From: an uncultured Acidobacteriota bacterium
Lineage (GTDB): Bacteria > Acidobacteriota > Terriglobia > Acidiferrales > UBA7541
Length of the DNA stretch: 64,000 nt
Assembly: GCA_963788915.1 (NCBI GenBank)
Contig: CAWBIY010000001.1
Span: forward strand, 16,470-80,469
Direction of reading: 5' to 3'
Numbering within the stretch: the stretch's first letter is position 1; every line of letters begins with the position of its first letter. The notes under the pieces are model-generated. The model searched no databases. It was not told the origin of the DNA and saw nothing but the letters and a program-made list of their open reading frames with translations. Positions 19,095 to 41,019 of this stretch are shown in pieces. The translations under genes were made by a program, and so were the position numbers.

Positions 19095-19644
19095 CGCTTT
19101 TTCTTCACAACAAACAGCCACCACGATCCGCGAGAAGTTGACGGCGAATTACGACCTCGTTGGGCAGATCAGACTTTCTTAGCGACGAAACCCTGGTAAC
19201 TGGGTCGCGGCACAGCCGCCTGATGAGTTCTGTCAGTCTACTGGAGGAGAAAGCAGGAAGCAGTGAATACGGTCGACGAATTGAAGGGCAACTTGGATGG
19301 TGTTTGGATACTCGGCCAAGCCTTGAAGTTGGCATAAGCTGTGTCGATTCCGGGGTTTTTGGCTACAAGCCGAATCGACGGTCATCCGGTTGCGGCTGCC
19401 GATTGACCGAAAGACTTAACAGCCGCTACCTGGTCGTCCATGATCTCGAAGACCGTATACAGCCAAGCCGCCAACTCCACGAGGAACGATTGGATTGTTT
19501 AGATGGTGTTGCATCGACCAGTTGAGCTGGCACGGCTAATCAGAGTTAGTGGAAGCGGATGATGTGGACTGCTAGTTTTTGACAGTGCCAATGCCACGGT
19601 CCCCGGCGCACCATAAGCGACCGTGCTTTGTCCTAGGAGTCTAC

Positions 19645-20952: not shown

Positions 20953-20971
20953 GTCACCGAAAGTCTGATTA

Positions 20972-21515
20972 ACGCTGCCAGTTCAGACGGTCGATGCAAC
21001 ACTGGCTTGCAGTTTACTCGCCGGAGTCTGAAAACCTAAAGTCTGTCTAGCGCGCTGATTTAAGCGCAGTGCGACCCGATCGAGCTGTGCCTGAGAGTAG
21101 ACAGATAGGTTGGTTCCTCGCGGGAAGTATTGCCTTAAAAGGAGGTTGGTGTTTTCGTTCGTGCCGCGCTGCCAGGGACTTTGCGGATCGCAGAAATAGA
21201 CCTGCACATCCGTAGCTACCGTAAAGTCCTGGTGTCTCGCCATCTCCAGTCCGCGGTCCCACGTCAGCGAGCGCCGCAGGGTAGCGGGGAGTTTACGAAT
21301 ATGCCGACTCAATGCCGTCACCACCACTGCGGAGTCTTTGCTGGGCACCTTGATCAGCATGGCAAAGCGTGAATGACGCTCCACTAACGTCACGATGTGA
21401 CTGTTCCGTGAGCCGCTTAACAGATCGCCCTCCCAATGACCAGGGACCGCGCGGTCCGCAACTTCAGCGGGTCTTTCCCGGATCGAGATGGCTTTGGGAA
21501 TTTGACCGCGCGGGT
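20972..21515 (-). mobile_element. IS30-family transposase, 3' half only
   Basis: ISIRERPAEVADRAVPGHWEGD...TLVERHSR...PWQRGTNENTNLLLRQYFPRG...VASTV*. Confidence 0.85.
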
Positions 21516-25292: not shown

Positions 25293-25323
25293 AGTCCTGG
25301 TTAACGCGCAAACCGGACAAGTC
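25293..25323 (+). repeat. Dyad site, copy 5 (AGTCCTGGTTAACGCGCAAACCGGACAAGTC), abutting the right end of IS110 C
   Basis: GTCC(T)GGTT...AACCGGAC dyad. Confidence 0.75.
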
Positions 25324-26357
25324 CTATAAAAAGGAATGTCAAGATAAAAGCCCTCCCTTCCGGTCCGATGCCGGTCCTTTTCGCCTAGTTGGGCATTCAG
25401 CCCAACTGTTTGAACGTGCTCCCTCGAGGTTCCATTTCGCTGTCGTGACGGCGTCAATCGTTTTCTGAAACAACAAGCCTGACGGTTGTCCACGGGATGA
25501 GTGGCAACGCCTGGTCCTATTGGAGACTCGCGGCCTAGGGCTTTCTTCGATTGTCCGAGAGGGCCTAGGGTGGATTCGGAGACGCGCGGGCTTAAAGCAC
25601 GGGCCTGACTTGTCCGATGGATACTTCCCCTCGAAACCGAGCGTCTCAAGAAGCCGACGGCCACCGCCAGGAATGGTTCCCAGGAGGACCGGACTCTTTG
25701 CCAGAGACGCTCAAGCTGCTTGTGGTTTCAAATAGTTGGCGTCGAAACGGACCTCCTTGTTCCAGACGATCAACGTGATCGCGGCAATCTGCCTCGCCAA
25801 GGTCCGGCGCGCCATCGTGGGCTTCCTTCCTTTGGCCAACAAAGCCTCATAGAAATCGCGGAGTGGTCCACTACGGCTGCTGACTCTTGTTGCTGCACCC
25901 TTAGAGATATCTTTGAGGTCGTGGTTGTGGTCCTTATTGAGGCCACGCAGCGTTACCGATTTCTTGGAGCGATTTAGCTGTCCATCCACAAGGCGGTATG
26001 GCGCACTGTCATGCGTTTCTAATCCCAGACCACTGTAGGTCCACAGCTGTCGCTGGGTGCGGAATCGGTGGGGTGTCTGGAGGAGTGCGACCAACAGAGC
26101 TGACCGGATCGGACCGCTCCCCGGAATCAGGCGCAATAGTTTCCACGCCTTGTGTTTTCTGCTCTCGGCCAGGAGATCGCGTCGCACTTCCTGGCGCAAC
26201 AGCCGTAAGACATCGAGCTGTTGGTCGTAGTGTTCGGCGCGTCGCCGGACGCCGGCTTCGGTGATCTTGCTGAGCCATTCCGAACGGTGGCGTGGTGCAT
26301 ACACTTCGTTGCCGGCACACGGAATGCCCCAACTGCGATACAACGCCTTGAGCGCCT
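25321..26357 (-). mobile_element. IS110-family element C, 5'-truncated (transposase C-half 25711-26357, NCR 25324-25710)
   Basis: YRSWGIPCAG...QTPHRFRTQRQLWTYSGLG...ARQIA; right end CTTGACATTCCTTTTTATAG|GAC. Confidence 0.85.
25324..25710 (-). ncRNA. Putative bridge/seekRNA region of IS110 C
   Basis: CGGACAAGTC (25616-25607) is the reverse complement of junction GACTTGTCCG; ATAGGAC (25520-25514) equals the element end. Confidence 0.65.
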
Positions 26358-27735
26358 GGACTTTATCCACGGGCTTCGCGGAGAGTTGCAGGTCACTTTT
26401 GAAGAAGGAACCTGGGCGACCTGGTTGTACGATCTGCTGAAACCGCACGTAACGAAACTGGTGGTGTGCGATCCGCGGAAGAATAGCAGACAGGGGAATA
26501 AGAATGACCGGATCGATGCACGCGAGCTGTCCGACCGGTTGTACATGAACAAGCTCAGCTCGGTCTATCACGGCGGCGCAGGAGTCCGCACGCTGAAGGA
26601 ACTGGCACGCAGCTATCTGACCATCAGCAAAGATCTCGCACGAGTCATGACCCGGGTGAAGGCGATCTATCGCAGTTGGGGTATTCCTTGTGCCGGCAAG
26701 CAAGTCTATGCGCCGCGTCATCGTGCCGAGTGGCTGGCGAAGATCACCGAGGTGGGGGTGCTTCGCCGGGCCGAGTTTTACTACCAGCAACTCGATGCCC
26801 TGAGGTCGTTGCGCCACGAAGTACGGCGCGATCTGTTAGCCGAGAGTAAGAAGCACAAGGCGAGCGAAACTGCTCTGCCAGATCCCTTCGATCGGTCCGA
26901 TCCGGGCGGCGCTGTTGATCGCGCTGATCCAGACACCGCACCGCTTCCGCACCAAGCGACCACTCTGGAAATACAGCGGTTTTGCCATCGAAACGCACAG
27001 CAGTGCCGATTACCGTAAAGTCCAAGGACAGCTAGAACGAACCAAGAAGCAAGTTTCGGTTCGTGGACTCAACCGAGACTGCAATCACGATCTGAAGAAT
27101 CTGTTTAAGAGCGCCGCCACCATCGCTTCGGTCAAACCGGGTCCGTTCCAGGAGTTCTACGCGGCCTTGGTGGCCAAAGGGATGAGACCGGAGATGGCAC
27201 GCCTGACCCTGGCGAGAAAGATTGCCACGATCGTATTGATCGTATGGAAGAAAGGAGTGAGCTTCGACGCCAAATATCTGAAACCACAAACAGCTTGAGT
27301 GTCTCTGATCGAGTCCGCTCCATCCCGGGGATCTTCTCTGGCGGTGGCCGTCAGGTTCTCGAGACACTCTGGTTCGAGAGCGAGTCTCAGCTGATAAGTT
27401 AGGCGCTGCGTGCTTCGGGCACCTAGTCTCACAGCCGACCCTAGGCCCTCTCGGACAACCAGAAAAAGCTATGGGCCACGAGTCCCGGATAGAACTATGG
27501 TCGCCAAATTTGACCACGTTCTGCTTTGTTGGTTTCGGAACTGACAGGCTTCGTTGCGAAGAAGCGATGAAAACCGCTGGTAGAGAAAACCCCAACCGCT
27601 GGGCCACACTGCCCAGCAACCGAGCACTTGGTGCGGACGGTCAGAACAGATCCTGCTCCATCAAGTGGGCTGCGAAGCAAGAAAAATTCCGGCCAATGCA
27701 GAAGTGTTTTTTCTTGACTTCTACCTTTATAGAAC
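26358..27735 (+). mobile_element. IS110-family element B, 5'-truncated, transposase frameshifted near 26868
   Basis: VTFEEG...KNDRIDA (RuvC-like DEDD part), C-terminal domain, NCR, end CTTGACTTCTACCTTTATAG|AAC. Confidence 0.88.
27299..27732 (+). ncRNA. Putative bridge/seekRNA region of IS110 B
   Basis: CTGATAAGTT (27391-27400) is a 9/10 match to the reverse complement of junction AACTTACCAG; ATAGAACT at 27489-27496. Confidence 0.6.
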
Positions 27736-36483: not shown

Positions 36484-36687
36484 ATGAGCGACGAAGTCAA
36501 GAACGTGGAAAACGAAGCACCGAAGGTGGAATCATCCGCACCGGAATCTGAACTGAAAGAGAACGAACTTGAAAAGGTCACAGGTGGGTTAAATCTTACG
36601 CCCCCTTCTGGCACGGCAACCGAGTCGCTGAAGAATCAGCATTTGAACAAGGCAAGCGACGATTGGGAGAGCCCGTTACAATCCTGA
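36484..36687 (+). CDS. Small peptide with a double-glycine-type leader (putative bacteriocin/RiPP precursor)
   Basis: AGGAGG RBS; acidic leader ending ELKENELEKVTGG. Confidence 0.6.
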   Translation: MSDEVKNVENEAPKVESSAPESELKENELEKVTGGLNLTPPSGTATESLKNQHLNKASDDWESPLQS

Positions 36688-36759
36688 CTATGCTGTAGCC
36701 CACTGCTCTTTCTCTCGGGTTAGAGCGAGCTAGGACAAGTGTTCCTAGAGACGGTGCAT

Positions 36760-37690
36760 GAACGCGGTCCGCCTCACCCCAGAGAAACCGCAACAGCGGG
36801 TTGCCTTGTTTACTCAGCCCCCCGAGCCGCTGTCGCCCTCCACTAGAATATTCACGTGGAATCATTCCCACATAACTAGCCAGGGCCTTGCTGTCTGCGA
36901 ATCGGGCGGGATCGCCCAGAAATACCTCGGTCGCCAACGCTGTGATCGGCCCCACTCCGGGATGGCTCATCAGCAGCCGTGCTCCGGGACGTTTGCAGGC
37001 TTGCTCCTCGACGCGCTGGTTCAGTTTCGCGATCTCCGCTTCGAACTTCTCGTACAGCGCCTGCAGCTCACTCCGCCGATAGGCGGTATGAGGCGCCAAC
37101 GACAACGATGCGATCCTGCTTTGCCCATCGTGGCTCCACAGGGCCGTGCCTCGCCGTAGGCCATTCGCTAGGGCAATGGACTGCAACGCATTTTGTATTC
37201 GCGTCCGCATGCGGACCCACTGATGACGATGCCGCAACAAGGCCCGCAGATCCTGTAGCTCCTTCGAAGGCAACCAGATTGCCGGAAAGCGGCCTTCCAC
37301 CAGCATCTGCAGAATCAACTCCGCATCTCGCCGATCATTTTTCTGCTTCCGCGGCGCGGCTGCGCGAATCTGTGCTGGATGGCCGACCCGGCATTCGATT
37401 CCCAGTTCTTCCATGAGATTCAAAAACCACTGCATCGATCCGTGGCTTCGATGCCCACTCGCGCCGGGCGTGGTAGCGAGGAATAAAACTCCCGCACGTT
37501 GTCGCCTTCGTGCTGGAGAGTCACCTCCAGTACCTCTCCCGTTGTGGTGTCCAACATCGCCAACGTTTGCTGGCGAGCGTGCAAATCACATCCTATAATT
37601 CGCATCTCGGCCTCCTTCGGTCCGAGCACTGTAGGGTGCACACCGAACAGCTTACTCGGGCCGTCGCGAGGCCGGCGTCGTTATGGCATC
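36760..37690 (-). mobile_element. IS110-family (IS1111-type) element E: left end and frameshifted, 3'-truncated transposase
   Basis: MRIIGCDLHARQQT (first catalytic D), KQKNDRRDA, SSGGRQRLG.LSKQG; subterminal IR 37670-37683. Confidence 0.88.
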
Positions 37691-38226
37691 AACCGGACAT
37701 CGCTAACAATGTCGGTCCTGTCAAACACTTTTTGAGCACACTTCTCAATTCACTTATAAGAGTTTTTTCCTCCCCTTCCTTGCTGTCTTTCTGATCGGCG
37801 CCTGCAAGCACGGCTCGTTCGTAATCTAGCGGTCGGTTTCAGTCCGACCCAAACATCTCGTGTGCTGAGCAGCGCGTTGTTCAGGAGGGTTAGAGTCCCT
37901 CTGGTGCTCGAATGAGGAGCGCCATATCCAAGAAAGTGGGGGTAATTCCTCGCTGGCCGGAGGAAGTGGAAGGTATGGAGACGTCTAGGCAGCGAGCCCT
38001 CATTATCAGTACGTCGTTATTACAGTGTCGGTGTCAGAGTTTGAAATGCAAAAGGAGTTGGACAAACACGCTTCGGAGGGATGAGAACTTGTTTCGCCAC
38101 TGTATACGGATCGGTTGTATCTAATTTTCCGCAAAGAGGCGCGTTGACTCCACAGTGCCGTAATCTCGTCGGTGTAATGCGGCGACACGCTGCCAGCGAC
38201 TTAGCGGTGTAGGTCATAGTGGTGTA

Positions 38227-38254
38227 GTGCCTGATAAACGCTAATCGGACAAGT
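38227..38254 (+). repeat. Dyad site, copy 6 (GTGCCTGATAAACGCTAATCGGACAAGT)
   Basis: Same family; just downstream of the CPBP gene. Confidence 0.65.
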
Positions 38255-38288
38255 GCCCATTCGCCCCGCCACATCGACTTTCTTCGTT

Positions 38289-39146
38289 TCAGGTGCTAAT
38301 CGCATTTGTGGTGTTTCTCAGCGTTTGCTTTCGCATATCGTTCAGGAAGTACGCGGCAGAGGCGCAGAGCAGCGCAAGCGAAATCCACGAAATGCGCGAC
38401 GCGTGGAATCCGAACGTATCGGTTCCACCGAGAACCCCTGACGGGACAATGTCCTTCGAGTTGTTGATCGCCGCATGCAGCAGCATCGTCAAGAGCAGGC
38501 TGCCGTTGGTGCGCGCGTACAGCCAAGCGAACGCCACGGACATCGCGGTCACCTGCAGCACGAATACCGGAAAGGCCTGCCGATAGGAATCGCCGTCACG
38601 AATGAAAAACTGCGGCAGATGCCATACGCCCCAGATGAACCCGAGCAGCACACTCGCGCTTCCCAGTCCGAAACGATCCGCCAGTCGGGGAAGGGCATAG
38701 CCGCGCCAACCGATCTCCTCTCCGCCCTGAAACGGGGTCGAAAATGCGATGGCAAACGGAATCAGGTACCACTGCGAGGTGTCAAAGCGCGGCCATGAAC
38801 TGGTTGAGGCACGGTAAATCATTGCAGCGGTTAGCTTAAGCGCAATCATGAATCCAAGTGCGAAGACGTAGTACTTCGCGGCGACGCTCCACCTCGTAAT
38901 TCTACGAAGGAGCGCGATCACGCCCGAGCGGCCCTCTGCGCGGAACGTAACCGCGAGCGCCGCCAATGCCGGAGCGAACGCCCCGAGCAGGATCAAGGCG
39001 CCCCCCAACGGCGAGCCTGCCGGTATCGGCACGACGGCGACGGTAAAGAAACAAATCCACATCAGCGCGAACGCCAGCGCGAAGAACACAAACAGCGAAC
39101 TGGCTGACGAAACGTGCACCGTCGGTTCGAGGGACTCGGCAATCAT
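38289..39146 (-). CDS. CPBP-family intramembrane glutamic endopeptidase (CAAX protease/Abi)
   Basis: GEEIGWRGYALPRL, WGVWHLP, LHAAIN motifs; multi-TM. Confidence 0.92.
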   Translation of the reverse strand: MIAESLEPTVHVSSASSLFVFFALAFALMWICFFTVAVVPIPAGSPLGGALILLGAFAPALAALAVTFRAEGRSGVIALLRRITRWSVAAKYYVFALGFMIALKLTAAMIYRASTSSWPRFDTSQWYLIPFAIAFSTPFQGGEEIGWRGYALPRLADRFGLGSASVLLGFIWGVWHLPQFFIRDGDSYRQAFPVFVLQVTAMSVAFAWLYARTNGSLLLTMLLHAAINNSKDIVPSGVLGGTDTFGFHASRISWISLALLCASAAYFLNDMRKQTLRNTTNAIST

Positions 39147-39252
39147 GCAAGCAGCCTCAGATGTGAGGGAAAGATGCCGCGCGGGGCAAGGAACAAACTA
39201 TACCACTCCTCAGAGGCAGCGAAGCCTGCGCAGTCAGTGCCTGGTAAACGCG

Positions 39253-39512
39253 GTATCTCTAACGAGGCCGGCCGTGTCAAGAGTGTTTTCTCTTCTTTTT
39301 TACCAAAACTCGGACACACTTCTCCTTCGGCGCATGAAGTGCGTCTTTTTCTGCCGCTTCTGTTCATCGGTGTCACCCTAATCTGCTCAGCCCGTTTACG
39401 ATCATCAACTCAGTGTTGCCACCAAACATCTCTTCGATCACCATCGACCATGATGAGTTATGCGAACTCCCCATTCCTAAAGGGAGGCGGGTAACCTAAT
39501 CAACCGGACCCG
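39253..39512 (-). mobile_element. Right end and 3' non-coding region of an IS1111-type element, joined to the left half of a dyad site (39237-39252)
   Basis: IR TAACGAGGCCGGCC (39260-39273) matches the element-E IR at 13/14; -35 TTGACA next to it; ATCAACCGGAC (39499-39509) equals the element-E left junction (37688-37698). Confidence 0.7.
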
Positions 39513-39513
39513 C

Positions 39514-40668
39514 GTGATCAAGCCCAGTGACGGTAGTCCATCGCGGACCGTCTGGGTCGGTCGTTGGCGAGAAGATGAAATCGTCGACGGGCGCACCAGG
39601 AGAGTTCGCAGATCCGAAGTACTCGGGGAGAAGAAGGAGGGCGATCTTCCCACTCGGGCGCTTGCGAGGCGCAGACTCGAAGAACGGCTAGCTGTTGTAA
39701 ATGACCCTTCCTATCGGGCGAGGCCATCATCGACGTTCGCAGAATTCGCAAAGCGTTGGGAAGCTCTCGTAGTCATCCAACACAAACCATCAACCCAGGT
39801 GAACCTTCGTAGCCATCTGCGGAGATACATCACGCCGTTTTTTGGGCGGTCGGCGGTGCGAGACGTGAGACCTGATACGGTTCAGCAGTTCGTCTCCAGC
39901 ATCAAAGCTGGCCCCAAAACGGTGCGAAATATCTACGTCACACTGCAGATGATGTGGAAGTCGGCTTCGCGCCTGGCAGTACGTTGCGCACGACGCTCTC
40001 GATGGCGTTGTGTTACCCAAGAGACGCACACCTCGCCGATTCTTTTTCACACAGGATGAAGTGACTCGCATTCTGGCGAACGCGGAGGAGCCGTACCGAA
40101 CTTTTTATTGGCTCGCCGCGGAACTCGGATTGCGCGCCGGCGAAATATGCGGTTTGCGTCTTGAGGATCTAGACCTCGAAGTCGGACTGGTTCACGTGAG
40201 GCAGAGCGCCTGGCGGGGTAACTACAAGAGCCCAAGACCCCCAACGCCACGCGCTCGCTAGCTATCTCACCGAACCTCGTCGAGCACTTGCGGCGGTTCA
40301 TCGAGAAGTGGCGACCCAATGCGAGCGGCCTGCTGTTCGCCTCGCGAAACGGGACGCCTTTCGACCAGAACCTACTCGTGAAGCGAAAGCTGCGCCCGCT
40401 CCTCGAGAGGTTAAGCATCCCACGCTGCGGCCTTCACGCCTTCCGGCACTTCTCGGCGTCGATGATGGACCGGCTCAATACGCCGCTGAAATTGCGGCAG
40501 CAACGGCTGGGACACGACGATGCTGAAATGACTCTAGGCGTATACAGTCACGTGGCGAAGGAGGACGACATTCGGGTAGCGGCTCAGTTGGGAGAAATTC
40601 TGGACCCTTCTGGACCTTTCCTGAAAAACAAAGGGCCTGTCCCCGGTGGACAAGCCCTTGTGAATTAA
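39514..40668 (+). pseudogene. int: Phage-type tyrosine integrase with two frameshifts (about 39967 and 40220) and a lost N-terminus
   Basis: VWVGRWRED arm domain; AAELGLRAGEICGL (R), GLHAFRH (HxxR), LGHDDAEMTLGVYSH (H, Y). Confidence 0.88.
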
Positions 40669-40678
40669 TCACCTAGAA

Positions 40679-40724
40679 TGGTTGCGGGGGTCAGATTTGA
40701 ACTGACGACCTTCGGGTTATGAGC
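40679..40724 (-). tRNA. 3' half (46 nt) of initiator tRNA-Met (CAT); att-site duplication, not a full gene
   Basis: GCTCATAACCCGAAGGTCGTCAGTTCAAATCTGACCCCCGCAACCA; the 5' half is absent. Confidence 0.9.
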
Positions 40725-41019
40725 AATGAGGCCCAACACTAAGTGCTTTCGAATCAATCGCCCCGAAGGCCCAAATTAGCTCCCATGACCGATTCTGGTC
40801 GGCGAAGTGCAATCGCGGAAAGGAGTTAGCTCGATCCAAAGTTTGTCCGCTTATCCGCAATTTGAGTGGTCTCCAAAAACCCGGTTTGGCAATTTGTTGG
40901 CACGCAGTGTCGGTTGGGTCCGTGCTGGTGGTGCGACTGGAGCATGAGAGGGAATCCGGTCCCGCCTTCATGCAATCGGTCGTTGTTGCTGTGTCTGGCC
41001 AAAAACTAGAATCACACAG

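What the first reader, a model, noticed from the sequence alone, without database searches (positions are those of the whole stretch)
37670..39512. A second, IS1111-type subfamily targets the spacer of the same dyad site
Seen: the element-E left junction reads (plus strand) IR-TG-GCATC-AACCGGACA, i.e. the right arm of the site. A right end at 39253 reads CCTGGTAAACGCG-GTATC-TC-IR, i.e. the left arm. Joining them gives CCTGGTAAACGCGG(C/T)ATCAACCGG, the same length as copy 2. The orphan NCR contains ATCAACCGGAC (39499-39509), identical to the left junction (37688-37698) and oriented as a left target guide. The two ends are in right-end-then-left-end order around the CPBP gene. Inference: independent convergence of a second IS110 lineage on this site, from two insertions or a rearrangement, which supports the site being a conserved, frequent target.
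Basis: partly seen in the sequence, partly recalled or inferred. Interest (0 to 1): 0.65.

Follow-up and report, generated by a model that had tools for sequence, protein, structure and literature searches.

The report
Two dead fragments of RNA-guided IS
The two "ends" around the CPBP gene are broken pieces of one ordinary RNA-guided (IS1111-type, seekRNA) insertion sequence that always lands at the same point inside a repeated 30-bp palindrome, which is a known kind of element and target choice, seen here in soil Acidobacteriota.

Summary
36763-37689 (element E) is the 5' two-thirds of an IS110-family element. 39257-39509 is the right end plus the first ~250 nt of the 3' non-coding region (NCR) of the same IS variant. 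Both are ~98.5% identical to one intact copy in another Acidobacteriota MAG.

The intact element (reference C10:707409-708826, ~1.4 kb) has the IS1111-family hallmarks:
- a 14-bp subterminal inverted repeat with 6- and 3-bp extensions;
- a long NCR downstream of the transposase gene;
- a stem / internal-loop / hairpin RNA motif whose two loop strands match the two flanks.

Across 5 copies in this genome and 71 in other genomes, the two guide segments covary with the flanks (8.6 of 11 positions against 7.1 and 7.9 in cross-lineage permutations; 0 of 2000 permutations reached the observed value). Insertion is at an AT in the spacer of the dyad, CCTGRTWAACGCGGT-AT-CAACCGGACAAGT. An identical unoccupied site exists at C12:749949.

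Both window fragments are dead. E lacks its 3' end and NCR. The orphan NCR keeps only one of the two guides. They most likely come from two same-orientation insertions that were later truncated, but a single-copy rearrangement is not excluded.

This is a new member of a known kind and of low interest.

The parts
36763..37687 (-). Element E, the 5' fragment of the IS. It holds the left-end extension (37684-37687), the subterminal IR GGCCGGCGTCGTTA (37670-37683), and the transposase gene from ATG 37605 to about codon 293. There is a 1-nt CCC>CC difference near 37437. The last ~69 codons, the whole 3' NCR and the right end are missing.
   Evidence: Pfam PF01548 and PF02371 match the ORF. The fragment is 94% identical to C10:707902-708832 and 98.6% identical to L005. 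The alignment shows homology starting at 36763 and the 1-nt gap.
37688..37698 (+). AT crossover dinucleotide (37688-37689) plus a 9-bp remnant of the dyad's right arm, CAACCGGAC. This is the target half matched by guide 2.
   Evidence: All left-end flanks in the genome read (G/A)C-AT-CAA(C/T)C(G/A)G. The consensus of 48 copies in other genomes agrees.
37699..37859 (-). Right end and first ~160 nt of the NCR of a different IS1111-type lineage, 'F' (sTIR TAACAATGTCGG at 37704-37715). It shares the same dyad arm, so E and F sit 9 bp apart.
   Evidence: The genome holds 13 F right ends, all preceded by TTACCGGAC-AT. F left ends are followed by AT-CAAGT. The F transposase is 45% identical to the E-type transposase.
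37860..37987 (+). First 128 nt of a group II intron inserted in the F NCR, truncated here.
   Evidence: It is 100% identical to four other copies at the same point of F. The intact copy on C5 encodes RVT_1 plus GIIM.
38230..38258 (+). Intact, unoccupied dyad site: CCTGATAAACGCTAATCGGACAAGT.
   Evidence: nhmmer E = 4.7e-6.
38289..39146 (-). CPBP / Rce1-like intramembrane protease gene (285 aa). It is ordinary cargo of the island and not part of the IS.
   Evidence: Pfam PF02517, E = 5e-18. No DNA orthologue was found in 40 relatives.
39237..39256 (+). Left arm of a dyad (GTGCCTGGTAAACGCGGT) plus the AT crossover dinucleotide (39255-39256).
   Evidence: The same left flank lies next to the right ends of the other copies.
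39257..39509 (-). Orphan right end. It holds the 3-bp extension CTC, the subterminal IR TAACGAGGCCGGCC (39260-39273) and ~235 nt of the 3' NCR. It ends at the guide-2 DNA, ATCAACCGG(AC), at 39499-39509. Guide 1, the apical hairpin, the 5' strand of the closing stems and the transposase gene are missing.
   Evidence: It is 98% identical to C11:27065-27339, 98.4% to L005 and 89% to the C10 copy.
39514..40668 (+). Tyrosine-recombinase (phage-type integrase) gene split over three frames. It is followed at about 40676-40725 (minus strand) by a tRNA 3' half-like fragment, which marks the island boundary.
   Evidence: Pfam PF14659 and PF00589. ARAGORN finds no whole tRNA. The fragment was read directly from the sequence.

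Best explanation
The region holds two non-overlapping, defective pieces of one variant of an IS1111-family (IS110 superfamily, DEDD transposase) insertion sequence.

How the intact element works. It is ~1.4 kb. Near the end of, and just after, its transposase gene it encodes a seekRNA/bridge-RNA-like motif. Two closing stems enclose an internal loop, and the two strands of that loop are guides. Guide 1 (5' strand, e.g. AACGCCGUAU) is complementary to the top strand of the right target half. Guide 2 (3' strand, CCGGUUGAU) is complementary to the bottom strand of the left target half. The two guides overlap on an AT, where strand exchange takes place. The preferred target is the spacer of a REP-like ~30-bp dyad, CCTGRTWAACGCGGT-AT-CAACCGGACAAGT.

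What is in the window. One copy inserted next to an already (or later) resident F-type IS at the dyad at 37690. Another copy inserted in the same orientation at a dyad at 39240. Later deletions removed the 3' third of the first copy and everything beyond guide 2 of the second. Neither piece can move or make a complete guide RNA.

Shown versus inferred.
- Shown: homology, ends, flanks, guide/flank covariation and stem covariation.
- Inferred: that the RNA is made, that it binds the transposase, that a circular intermediate forms, and the order of events.
For: - Family: NCBIfam NF033542 'IS110 family RNA-guided transposase' scores 218 bits against a cut-off of 140. Pfam PF01548 and PF02371 also match.
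- Anatomy of the intact copies.
- Flanks: every E-type, T2 and T3 end in the genome abuts a dyad half.
- Empty sites: there are five unoccupied GCGGTATCAAYCGG dyads, including an exact match to the joined junctions.
- Guide/flank matches: 7-12 nt in each of the 5 full copies, except one flank of C12_2341.
- Other genomes: 74 copies were parsed. 71 of the 74 have AT after the right end.
- Permutation test: the 71 copies with complete flanks fall into 27 guide classes. Own-guide matches are 8.62 and 8.65 of 11. Cross-class permutations give 7.14 (maximum 7.66) and 7.88 (maximum 8.17) in 2000 runs. Class consensus flanks follow guide changes such as ATAGGGCG, ATTGCGCG, ATGGCCGG and ATAACGCG.
- RNA structure: the consensus fold has compensatory changes in both closing stems and in the apical hairpin.
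- Guide order: it is the one reported for IS1111-family seekRNAs (PMC11187229).
- Same variant: E and the orphan both have L005 as best match, at 98.6% and 98.4%.
Against: - No RNA, circle junction or transposition was observed, and Rfam has no model that hits the NCR.
- Only about 11 T1-compatible dyads (occupied plus empty) were seen in 7.8 Mb. Two hits 1.57 kb apart is therefore a coincidence, unless insertions cluster in this island.
- The window orphan and the C11 orphan are cut within 3 nt of each other, which random deletion does not predict.
The truncation junctions and the CCC>CC frameshift therefore rest on a MAG assembly.
Confidence: 0.82

Rival explanations
1. One insertion, later rearranged. 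A single IS copy and the 1.57-kb CPBP segment were tandemly duplicated, or existed as a circular cointegrate that was reopened inside the transposase gene. The outer parts were then lost, which left LE-flank...flank-RE in permuted order.
For: E and the orphan do not overlap, belong to the same variant (best hit L005 for both), and together lack only ~240 bp of the IS. A duplication junction at 37987/37988 would also explain why the group II intron is cut there.
Against: This rival needs as many events as two insertions do. No duplicated unique sequence is seen on either side of the pieces. Dyads are dense in this island: five score in the nhmmer census within window 11733-38267. A second compatible site nearby is therefore plausible.
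Confidence: 0.3
2. The orphan is not a random wreck. The DNA that encodes guide 2 (CCGGTTG-AT) mimics the left target half plus the crossover dinucleotide. The transposase/seekRNA complex recombined there, either with the true left junction or through a mini-circle. This produced a 250-bp 'guide-2-to-right-end' module comparable to the ssr9/MITEPpu9 modules of ISPpu9.
For: Two orphans that are 98% identical but have different flanks on both sides end within 3 nt of each other at the outer border of guide 2 (window ...ATCAACCGGAC|, C11 ...ATCAACCG|). Modular circles and solo sRNA modules are documented for ISPpu9 (PMC12288879).
Against: Beyond the guide, the adjoining DNA does not look like the dyad arm: the window reads ...ACCCGCG where ...ACAAGT is expected, and C11 shows no resemblance. 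Other truncated copies end at many different positions (query positions 142, 219, 307, 315, 332, 426). The AC after CCGG also occurs inside the T3 NCR.
Confidence: 0.1
3. Assembly artefact. The IS-internal breakpoints at 36763 and 39509, and the frameshift, are mis-joins or homopolymer errors in a long-read MAG, and the real genome has one or two intact IS copies here.
For: The genome is a 12-contig MAG that is 92.6% complete. The frameshift is a CCC>CC run-length difference. The neighbouring integrase is also split over three frames.
Against: Mis-joins in repeats normally happen inside shared sequence, not at a repeat/unique boundary in the middle of an IS. Similar truncated copies are found on other contigs and in other genomes.
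Confidence: 0.06

Closest known systems
IS1111-family seekRNA elements (ISEc11, ISKpn4, ISPa11, ISPst6; Siddiquee et al. 2024, PMC11187229)
   Same: DEDD transposase. Subterminal IR with 6-7 and 3 bp extensions. Long NCR downstream of tnp. Short RNA with a top-strand complement followed by a bottom-strand match. Natural re-direction by base changes in the guides. No target duplication beyond the shared crossover bases.
   Different: Only ~26% amino-acid identity to IS4321/IS5075-type transposases. The host is Acidobacteriota (Ca. Acidoferrales). The guide loop overlaps the last codons of tnp. The target is a REP-like dyad of this lineage. Nothing has been tested experimentally.
IS4321 / IS5075 and the IS1111-attC group (Partridge & Hall 2003; Post & Hall 2009, as cited in PMC11187229)
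   Same: IS1111-type elements that insert at one fixed position and orientation inside a short inverted-repeat structure that is itself repeated in the genome or mobilome.
   Different: Those elements target the 38-bp IRs of Tn21-family transposons or integron attC sites. Here the target is a ~30-bp chromosomal dyad with about 90 copies, and no link to a transposon end or an integron has been shown.
ISPpu9 / ISPpu10 and MITEPpu9 of Pseudomonas putida KT2440 (PMC12288879)
   Same: Several IS110-family lineages in one genome all land in REP/BIME palindromes. There are transposase-less modules and solo RNA-gene copies.
   Different: ISPpu9 is IS110-type with its bridge RNA upstream. Its solo modules have both end boxes and form circles. 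The window orphan has only a right end. The F-type MITEs elsewhere in this genome are the better parallel.
IS621 bridge RNA system (PDB 8WT6; Durrant et al. 2024, from my own knowledge)
   Same: An internal-loop RNA with left and right target guides that meet at a core dinucleotide. The natural target is a REP.
   Different: IS621 has a 5' NCR, no subterminal IR and a CT core. Only the C-terminal domain of its transposase aligns with this one (residues 179-323, E = 9e-10).

Membership tests
IS1111 family (within the IS110 group) | DEDD (RuvC-like) N-terminal domain plus PF02371 C-terminal domain transposase | tested here: met
   PF01548 and PF02371 match the E ORF. NF033542 scores 218 bits against a cut-off of 140 on the intact C10 copy.
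IS1111 family (within the IS110 group) | Subterminal inverted repeats of about 11-13 bp, perfect or near-perfect | tested here: met
   TAACGA(G/C)GCCGGCC at both ends, 13 of 14 positions matching. The repeat is conserved in 74 copies from other genomes.
IS1111 family (within the IS110 group) | Asymmetric terminal extensions: 7 (or 6) bp on the left and 3 bp on the right | tested here: met
   ATG(C/T)CA (6 bp) lies before the left IR and GAG (3 bp) after the right IR, if the shared AT is assigned to the left end. The rule is taken from PMC11187229.
IS1111 family (within the IS110 group) | Long non-coding region downstream of tnp | tested here: met
   About 45 bp lie between the left IR and the start codon, against about 240 nt from the stop codon to the right end. 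The guide loop overlaps the last ~15 codons.
IS1111 family (within the IS110 group) | seekRNA with a top-strand complement 5' of the bottom-strand match, both matching the target | tested here: met
   The sequence order is as required, the guides covary with the flanks, and the stems covary. The RNA itself was not observed.
IS1111 family (within the IS110 group) | Transposase related over its full length to IS1111-type transposases | tested here: inconclusive
   It aligns to IS5075/IS4321 transposases over residues 39-328 at 26% identity, E about 1e-6. It aligns to IS621 only over 179-323. No phylogeny was made.
IS1111 family (within the IS110 group) | Movement through a circular intermediate, with insertion dependent on the seekRNA | not testable with these tools
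   This needs PCR for a circle junction and a mini-IS assay.
REP / BIME-like repeats (the target) | Short imperfect palindrome in many, mostly intergenic, copies, often in inverted pairs | tested here: met
   The strict pattern finds 44 copies and nhmmer finds 92. Inverted pairs such as AATCGGAAACTTG-N15-ACTTGTCCGGT are common. The window copies lie between ORFs. Intergenic position was not checked genome-wide.
REP / BIME-like repeats (the target) | Associated RAYT (Y1 transposase) that recognises the repeat | tested here: inconclusive
   The genome has four PF01797 matches. No link between them and the dyad was examined.
Integron attC site (target of the IS1111-attC subgroup) | 50-150-bp site with R''/L''-L'/R' boxes, next to cassettes and an IntI integrase | not tested
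   This was only considered. The dyad is ~30 bp and the neighbouring recombinase gives generic Phage_integrase matches. IntI-specific features were not examined.

The most novel reading that the evidence does not exclude
The DNA that encodes a target guide is itself a half-copy of the target. The IS recombinase would occasionally use it as a pseudo-junction and shed 250-bp 'guide-2-to-right-end' modules such as the window orphan and its twin on C11. That would be a built-in, guide-dependent decay or modularisation route for seekRNA elements.
Probability: 0.1. Interest if true: 0.55.

Novelty: new member of a known kind. Interest (0 to 1): 0.25.

Why it matters
The finding adds an unnamed IS1111-type family to the catalogue, with at least four related species in this genome: T1 (= E-type), T2, T3 and F. 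Relatives of its transposase were found at 343 places in genomes that are almost all Acidobacteriota MAGs.

It also provides a clean natural series of guide/target re-programming, with 27 guide classes. One case is a mirror-image switch to the other half of the same palindrome.

For annotation, 36763-37689 and 39257-39509 should be marked as IS remnants. The CPBP gene should not be read as IS cargo.

The finding does not change what is known about how these elements work.

Tried and rejected
- Rfam: no family matches the NCR, either in the window (E up to 1) or in the intact copy.
- Ancestral locus: none was found. There is no DNA match to the CPBP segment in 40 relatives.
- Truncation at guide 2 in the genus: a search with RE+NCR+tnp 3' end gave many hits ending at query position ~250. 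These reflect divergence of the guides between lineages, not truncation, so they do not support a hotspot.
- Promoter: no outward promoter from the orphan right end towards CPBP was predicted.
- Deletion between the flank and guide 2 as direct repeats: rejected as unsupported, because the DNA beyond the guide is not dyad-like.
- attC/integron reading: considered but not pursued.
- Own errors: alignment A1 contained a wrongly chosen first sequence and was discarded for A2. The last count was mis-indexed and is replaced, which gives 32 of 48 copies with an L-arm-like flank, 33 with an R-arm-like flank and 24 with both.
Full report
**What is at the coordinates**

On the plus strand the finding's left junction reads ...CGCGA-GGCCGGCGTCGTTA(37670-37683)-TG-GC-AT-CAACCGGAC-AT-CGC-TAACAATG... 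Its right junction reads ...GTGCCTGGTAAACGCG(to 39252)-GT-AT-CTC-TAACGAGGCCGGCC(39260-39273).... The two 14-bp blocks are inverted repeats with one mismatch.

Left of the first junction, on the minus strand, lies an IS110-family transposase gene (Pfam PF01548 and PF02371). It is split into ORFs 37420-37641 and 36596-37435. Between the junctions lie an Rce1-like CPBP protease gene (38289-39146, minus strand) and an intact dyad at 38230. Right of the second junction a phage-type integrase gene, split over three frames, starts at 39514.

The 11-mer ATCAACCGGAC occurs exactly at 37688 and 39499. The left-arm motif is over-represented in the window, with 7 matches against 1.5 expected.

**The two pieces are parts of one IS type**

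The window is C1:16470-80469 of a 7.8-Mb, 12-contig genome.
- BLAST against the whole genome shows that 36769-37697 is 94% identical to C10:707902-708832, and 39240-39507 is 89% identical to C10:707392-707662. That second segment lies immediately downstream of the same transposase gene.
- A pairwise alignment shows that E's homology begins at 36763 and runs to the left end. It has a one-base gap (CCC>CC) that causes the frameshift.
- The intact copy is about 1.4 kb. In window orientation it reads right end, ~240-nt NCR, transposase gene (362 aa, minus strand), ~45 nt, left end.
- E is therefore the 5' two-thirds of the element, and 39257-39509 is the right end plus most of the 3' NCR. About 240 bp of the element, holding the last ~69 codons, are present in neither piece.
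- Both pieces have the same best match among 81 full-length copies: L005, from another Acidobacteriota MAG, at 98.6% and 98.4%.

**Family**

The intact transposase scores 218 bits on NCBIfam NF033542, 'IS110 family RNA-guided transposase' (cut-off 140). It aligns with IS5075/IS4321 transposases over residues 39-328 at 26% identity. It aligns with IS621 only in the C-terminal domain.

Siddiquee et al. (PMC11187229) define the IS1111 family by four features:
- subterminal IRs of 11-13 bp;
- extensions of 7 or 6 bp on the left and 3 bp on the right;
- an NCR downstream of tnp;

All four are met here. The extensions are ATG(C/T)CA and GAG.

**Target**

Every end of this IS and of its two sister species in the genome (T2 at 80% and T3 at 76% aa identity) abuts a half of the same dyad. 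The right-end side reads ...CCTGGTWAACGCSGT-AT-, and the left-end side reads -AT-CAAYCRGA(C/A)A....

The junctions of E and the orphan, once joined, are found uninterrupted at C12:749949 (GTCCTGGTAAACGCGGTATCAACCGGACAAGT). Four further unoccupied GCGGTATCAAYCGG dyads also exist.

A scan of one genome per species found 343 places that encode a relative of the transposase. Almost all of the 80 loci kept are Acidobacteriota MAGs (many labelled Acidoferrales); one is labelled Dormiibacterota.
- In 74 parsed copies, the right end is followed by AT in 71.
- The joined consensus for 48 T1-like copies is CCTGATTAACGCGGTATCAACCGGA.AAGTG.
- Of those 48, 32 have an L-arm-like flank, 33 an R-arm-like flank, and 24 have both.

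The dyad itself has 44 strict copies and 92 nhmmer copies in this genome. It often occurs in inverted pairs, so it behaves like a REP/BIME family. Four Y1-transposase genes exist, but no link to the dyad was examined.

**Guide RNA**

In the orientation of the transposase gene, the end of the ORF and the start of the NCR read:

GCGGGGAUGCC-AGAAACGCCGUAU-GGUGCGAAAAGUCACC-GGCCGGUUGAUUA-GGCUACCCGC

RNAalifold on 35 distinct copies gives two closing stems, an internal loop and an apical hairpin. Compensatory changes occur in each stem. One pair is G-C in 27 copies and A-U in 6, and there are single double-changes elsewhere.

The 5' loop strand equals the DNA left of the right end, so it is the complement of the top strand of the right target half. 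The 3' loop strand equals the top strand of the left target half. The two overlap on AT.
- Within this genome, T1 has ...CCGGUUGAU with flank CCGGTTGAT. T2 has ...CUGAUUGAU with flank CTGATTGAT.
- T1's guide 1, AACGCCGUAU, matches its unusual flank AACGCCGTAT. T3's AAACGCGGUUU matches AAACGCGGTTT.
- Over the 71 foreign copies with complete flanks (27 guide classes), own-guide matches average 8.62 and 8.65 of 11. Guides drawn from other classes give 7.14 and 7.88, and none of 2000 permutations reached the observed values.
- Class consensus flanks follow the guide changes (ATAGGGCG, ATTGCGCG, ATGGCCGG, ATAACGCG).
- T2-like elements use the mirror half of the same palindrome, CCTGATTG-AT-AACGCGG....

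This is the natural re-programming described for seekRNAs and bridge RNAs. The RNA itself, its binding to the transposase and a circular intermediate are inferred, not shown. Rfam has no matching family.

**State of the window copies**

The orphan keeps the right end, the distal NCR, the second hairpin, the 3' strands of the closing stems and guide 2 (ATCAACCGG at 39499-39507). It lacks the apical hairpin, guide 1 and the 5' strands of the stems. E lacks the whole NCR and the C-terminus of the transposase. No partner end lies in the right order for either piece. The ends face away from the CPBP segment, so that segment is not a composite or cargo unit.

The 9 bp between E's left end and the next AT (CAACCGGAC) are also the left-hand target of a different IS1111-type species, F. 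F's right end starts at 37701, so one dyad was hit twice, 9 bp apart.
- F has 13 right ends in the genome, all preceded by TTACCGGAC-AT.
- There are 17 unoccupied ACCGGACATCAAGT sites.
- F has transposase-less MITE derivatives.
- Its transposase is 45% identical to the E type.

The other IS110-type transposase in the window (25711-26817) shares only 28% identity over 106 aa with the E type. Its 'TATAAAAGGG' ends lie just outside the dyad in 10 copies. Several lineages therefore do use this repeat, as ISPpu9 and ISPpu10 use REPs in P. putida (PMC12288879).

**History**

The order on the plus strand is [tnp'-LE]-right arm ... left arm-[RE-NCR']. This cannot come from an insertion into one IS copy. 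The simplest route is two same-orientation insertions into two dyads 1.57 kb apart, each later truncated (my estimate 0.55-0.6).

A tandem duplication or a reopened circular cointegrate of one IS plus the CPBP segment needs a similar number of events. It would also explain the cut intron at 37987 (about 0.3).

One oddity remains. The window orphan and a 98%-identical orphan on C11, with unrelated flanks, are cut within 3 nt of each other at the outer edge of guide 2. A recombination at this target-mimicking DNA is conceivable. However, the adjoining DNA is not dyad-like, and other truncated copies end at many positions.

**Verdict**

The object is a decayed pair of fragments of a new but typical IS1111-family, seekRNA-guided IS that targets a REP-like dyad. 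It is a new member of a known kind and of low interest.

Noticed in passing
window 37699-37859; also C12:1794712-1795082 and C7:1023268-1023642 of the genome: A second IS1111-type species, 'F' (sTIR TAACAATGTCGG). It targets TTACCGGAC-AT-CAAGT, the right arm of a dyad variant. There are 13 right ends and 17 empty sites. It has ~370-bp transposase-less derivatives that keep both ends and the whole guide-RNA gene.
   Followed up: partly
window 37860-37987; intact copy at L092 (C5:65824 onward): A group II intron (RVT_1 plus GIIM ORF) sits at exactly the same point of the F NCR (CAAACATCTC^GTGTG) in five copies that are 100% identical over the first 135 nt. This suggests an intron that homes into, or spreads with, an IS non-coding region. 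The window copy is cut after 128 nt.
   Followed up: partly
window 39499-39509 and C11:27065-27070: Two 98%-identical orphan right-end fragments with unrelated flanks are truncated within 3 nt of each other, at the DNA that encodes guide 2.
   Followed up: partly
window 36484-36687 (+): A 67-aa ORF with an acidic leader ending ...ELEKVTGG, a double-glycine-like motif as in bacteriocin or lanthipeptide precursors. It has no Pfam match.
   Followed up: no
window 19506-19547 and 20961-21002: 42-nt inverted repeats (GTGTTGCATCGACC...) of another repeated element also abut dyad arms, here and at several places in the genome. The order of the ends again looks 'inside-out'.
   Followed up: no
window 25322-25341, 27715-27735; 16 places in the genome: Ends reading TATAAA(A/G)GGG..GTCAAGA, from a distant IS110-type element, lie directly after ACCGGACAAGTCC in 10 copies or after ...AAGCGCGTTC in 4 copies. 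This is a third insertion position relative to the dyad.
   Followed up: partly
window 40676-40725 (-): A tRNA 3' half-like fragment (anticodon loop CTCATAA through ...CCCCGCAACCA) lies just past the integrase gene. ARAGORN calls no whole tRNA, so it looks like the att remnant that bounds the island.
   Followed up: no
window 37437; window 39514-40668: The frameshift in E is a CCC>CC run-length difference, and the integrase is split over three frames. In a long-read MAG these may be sequencing errors rather than real pseudogenisation.
   Followed up: no
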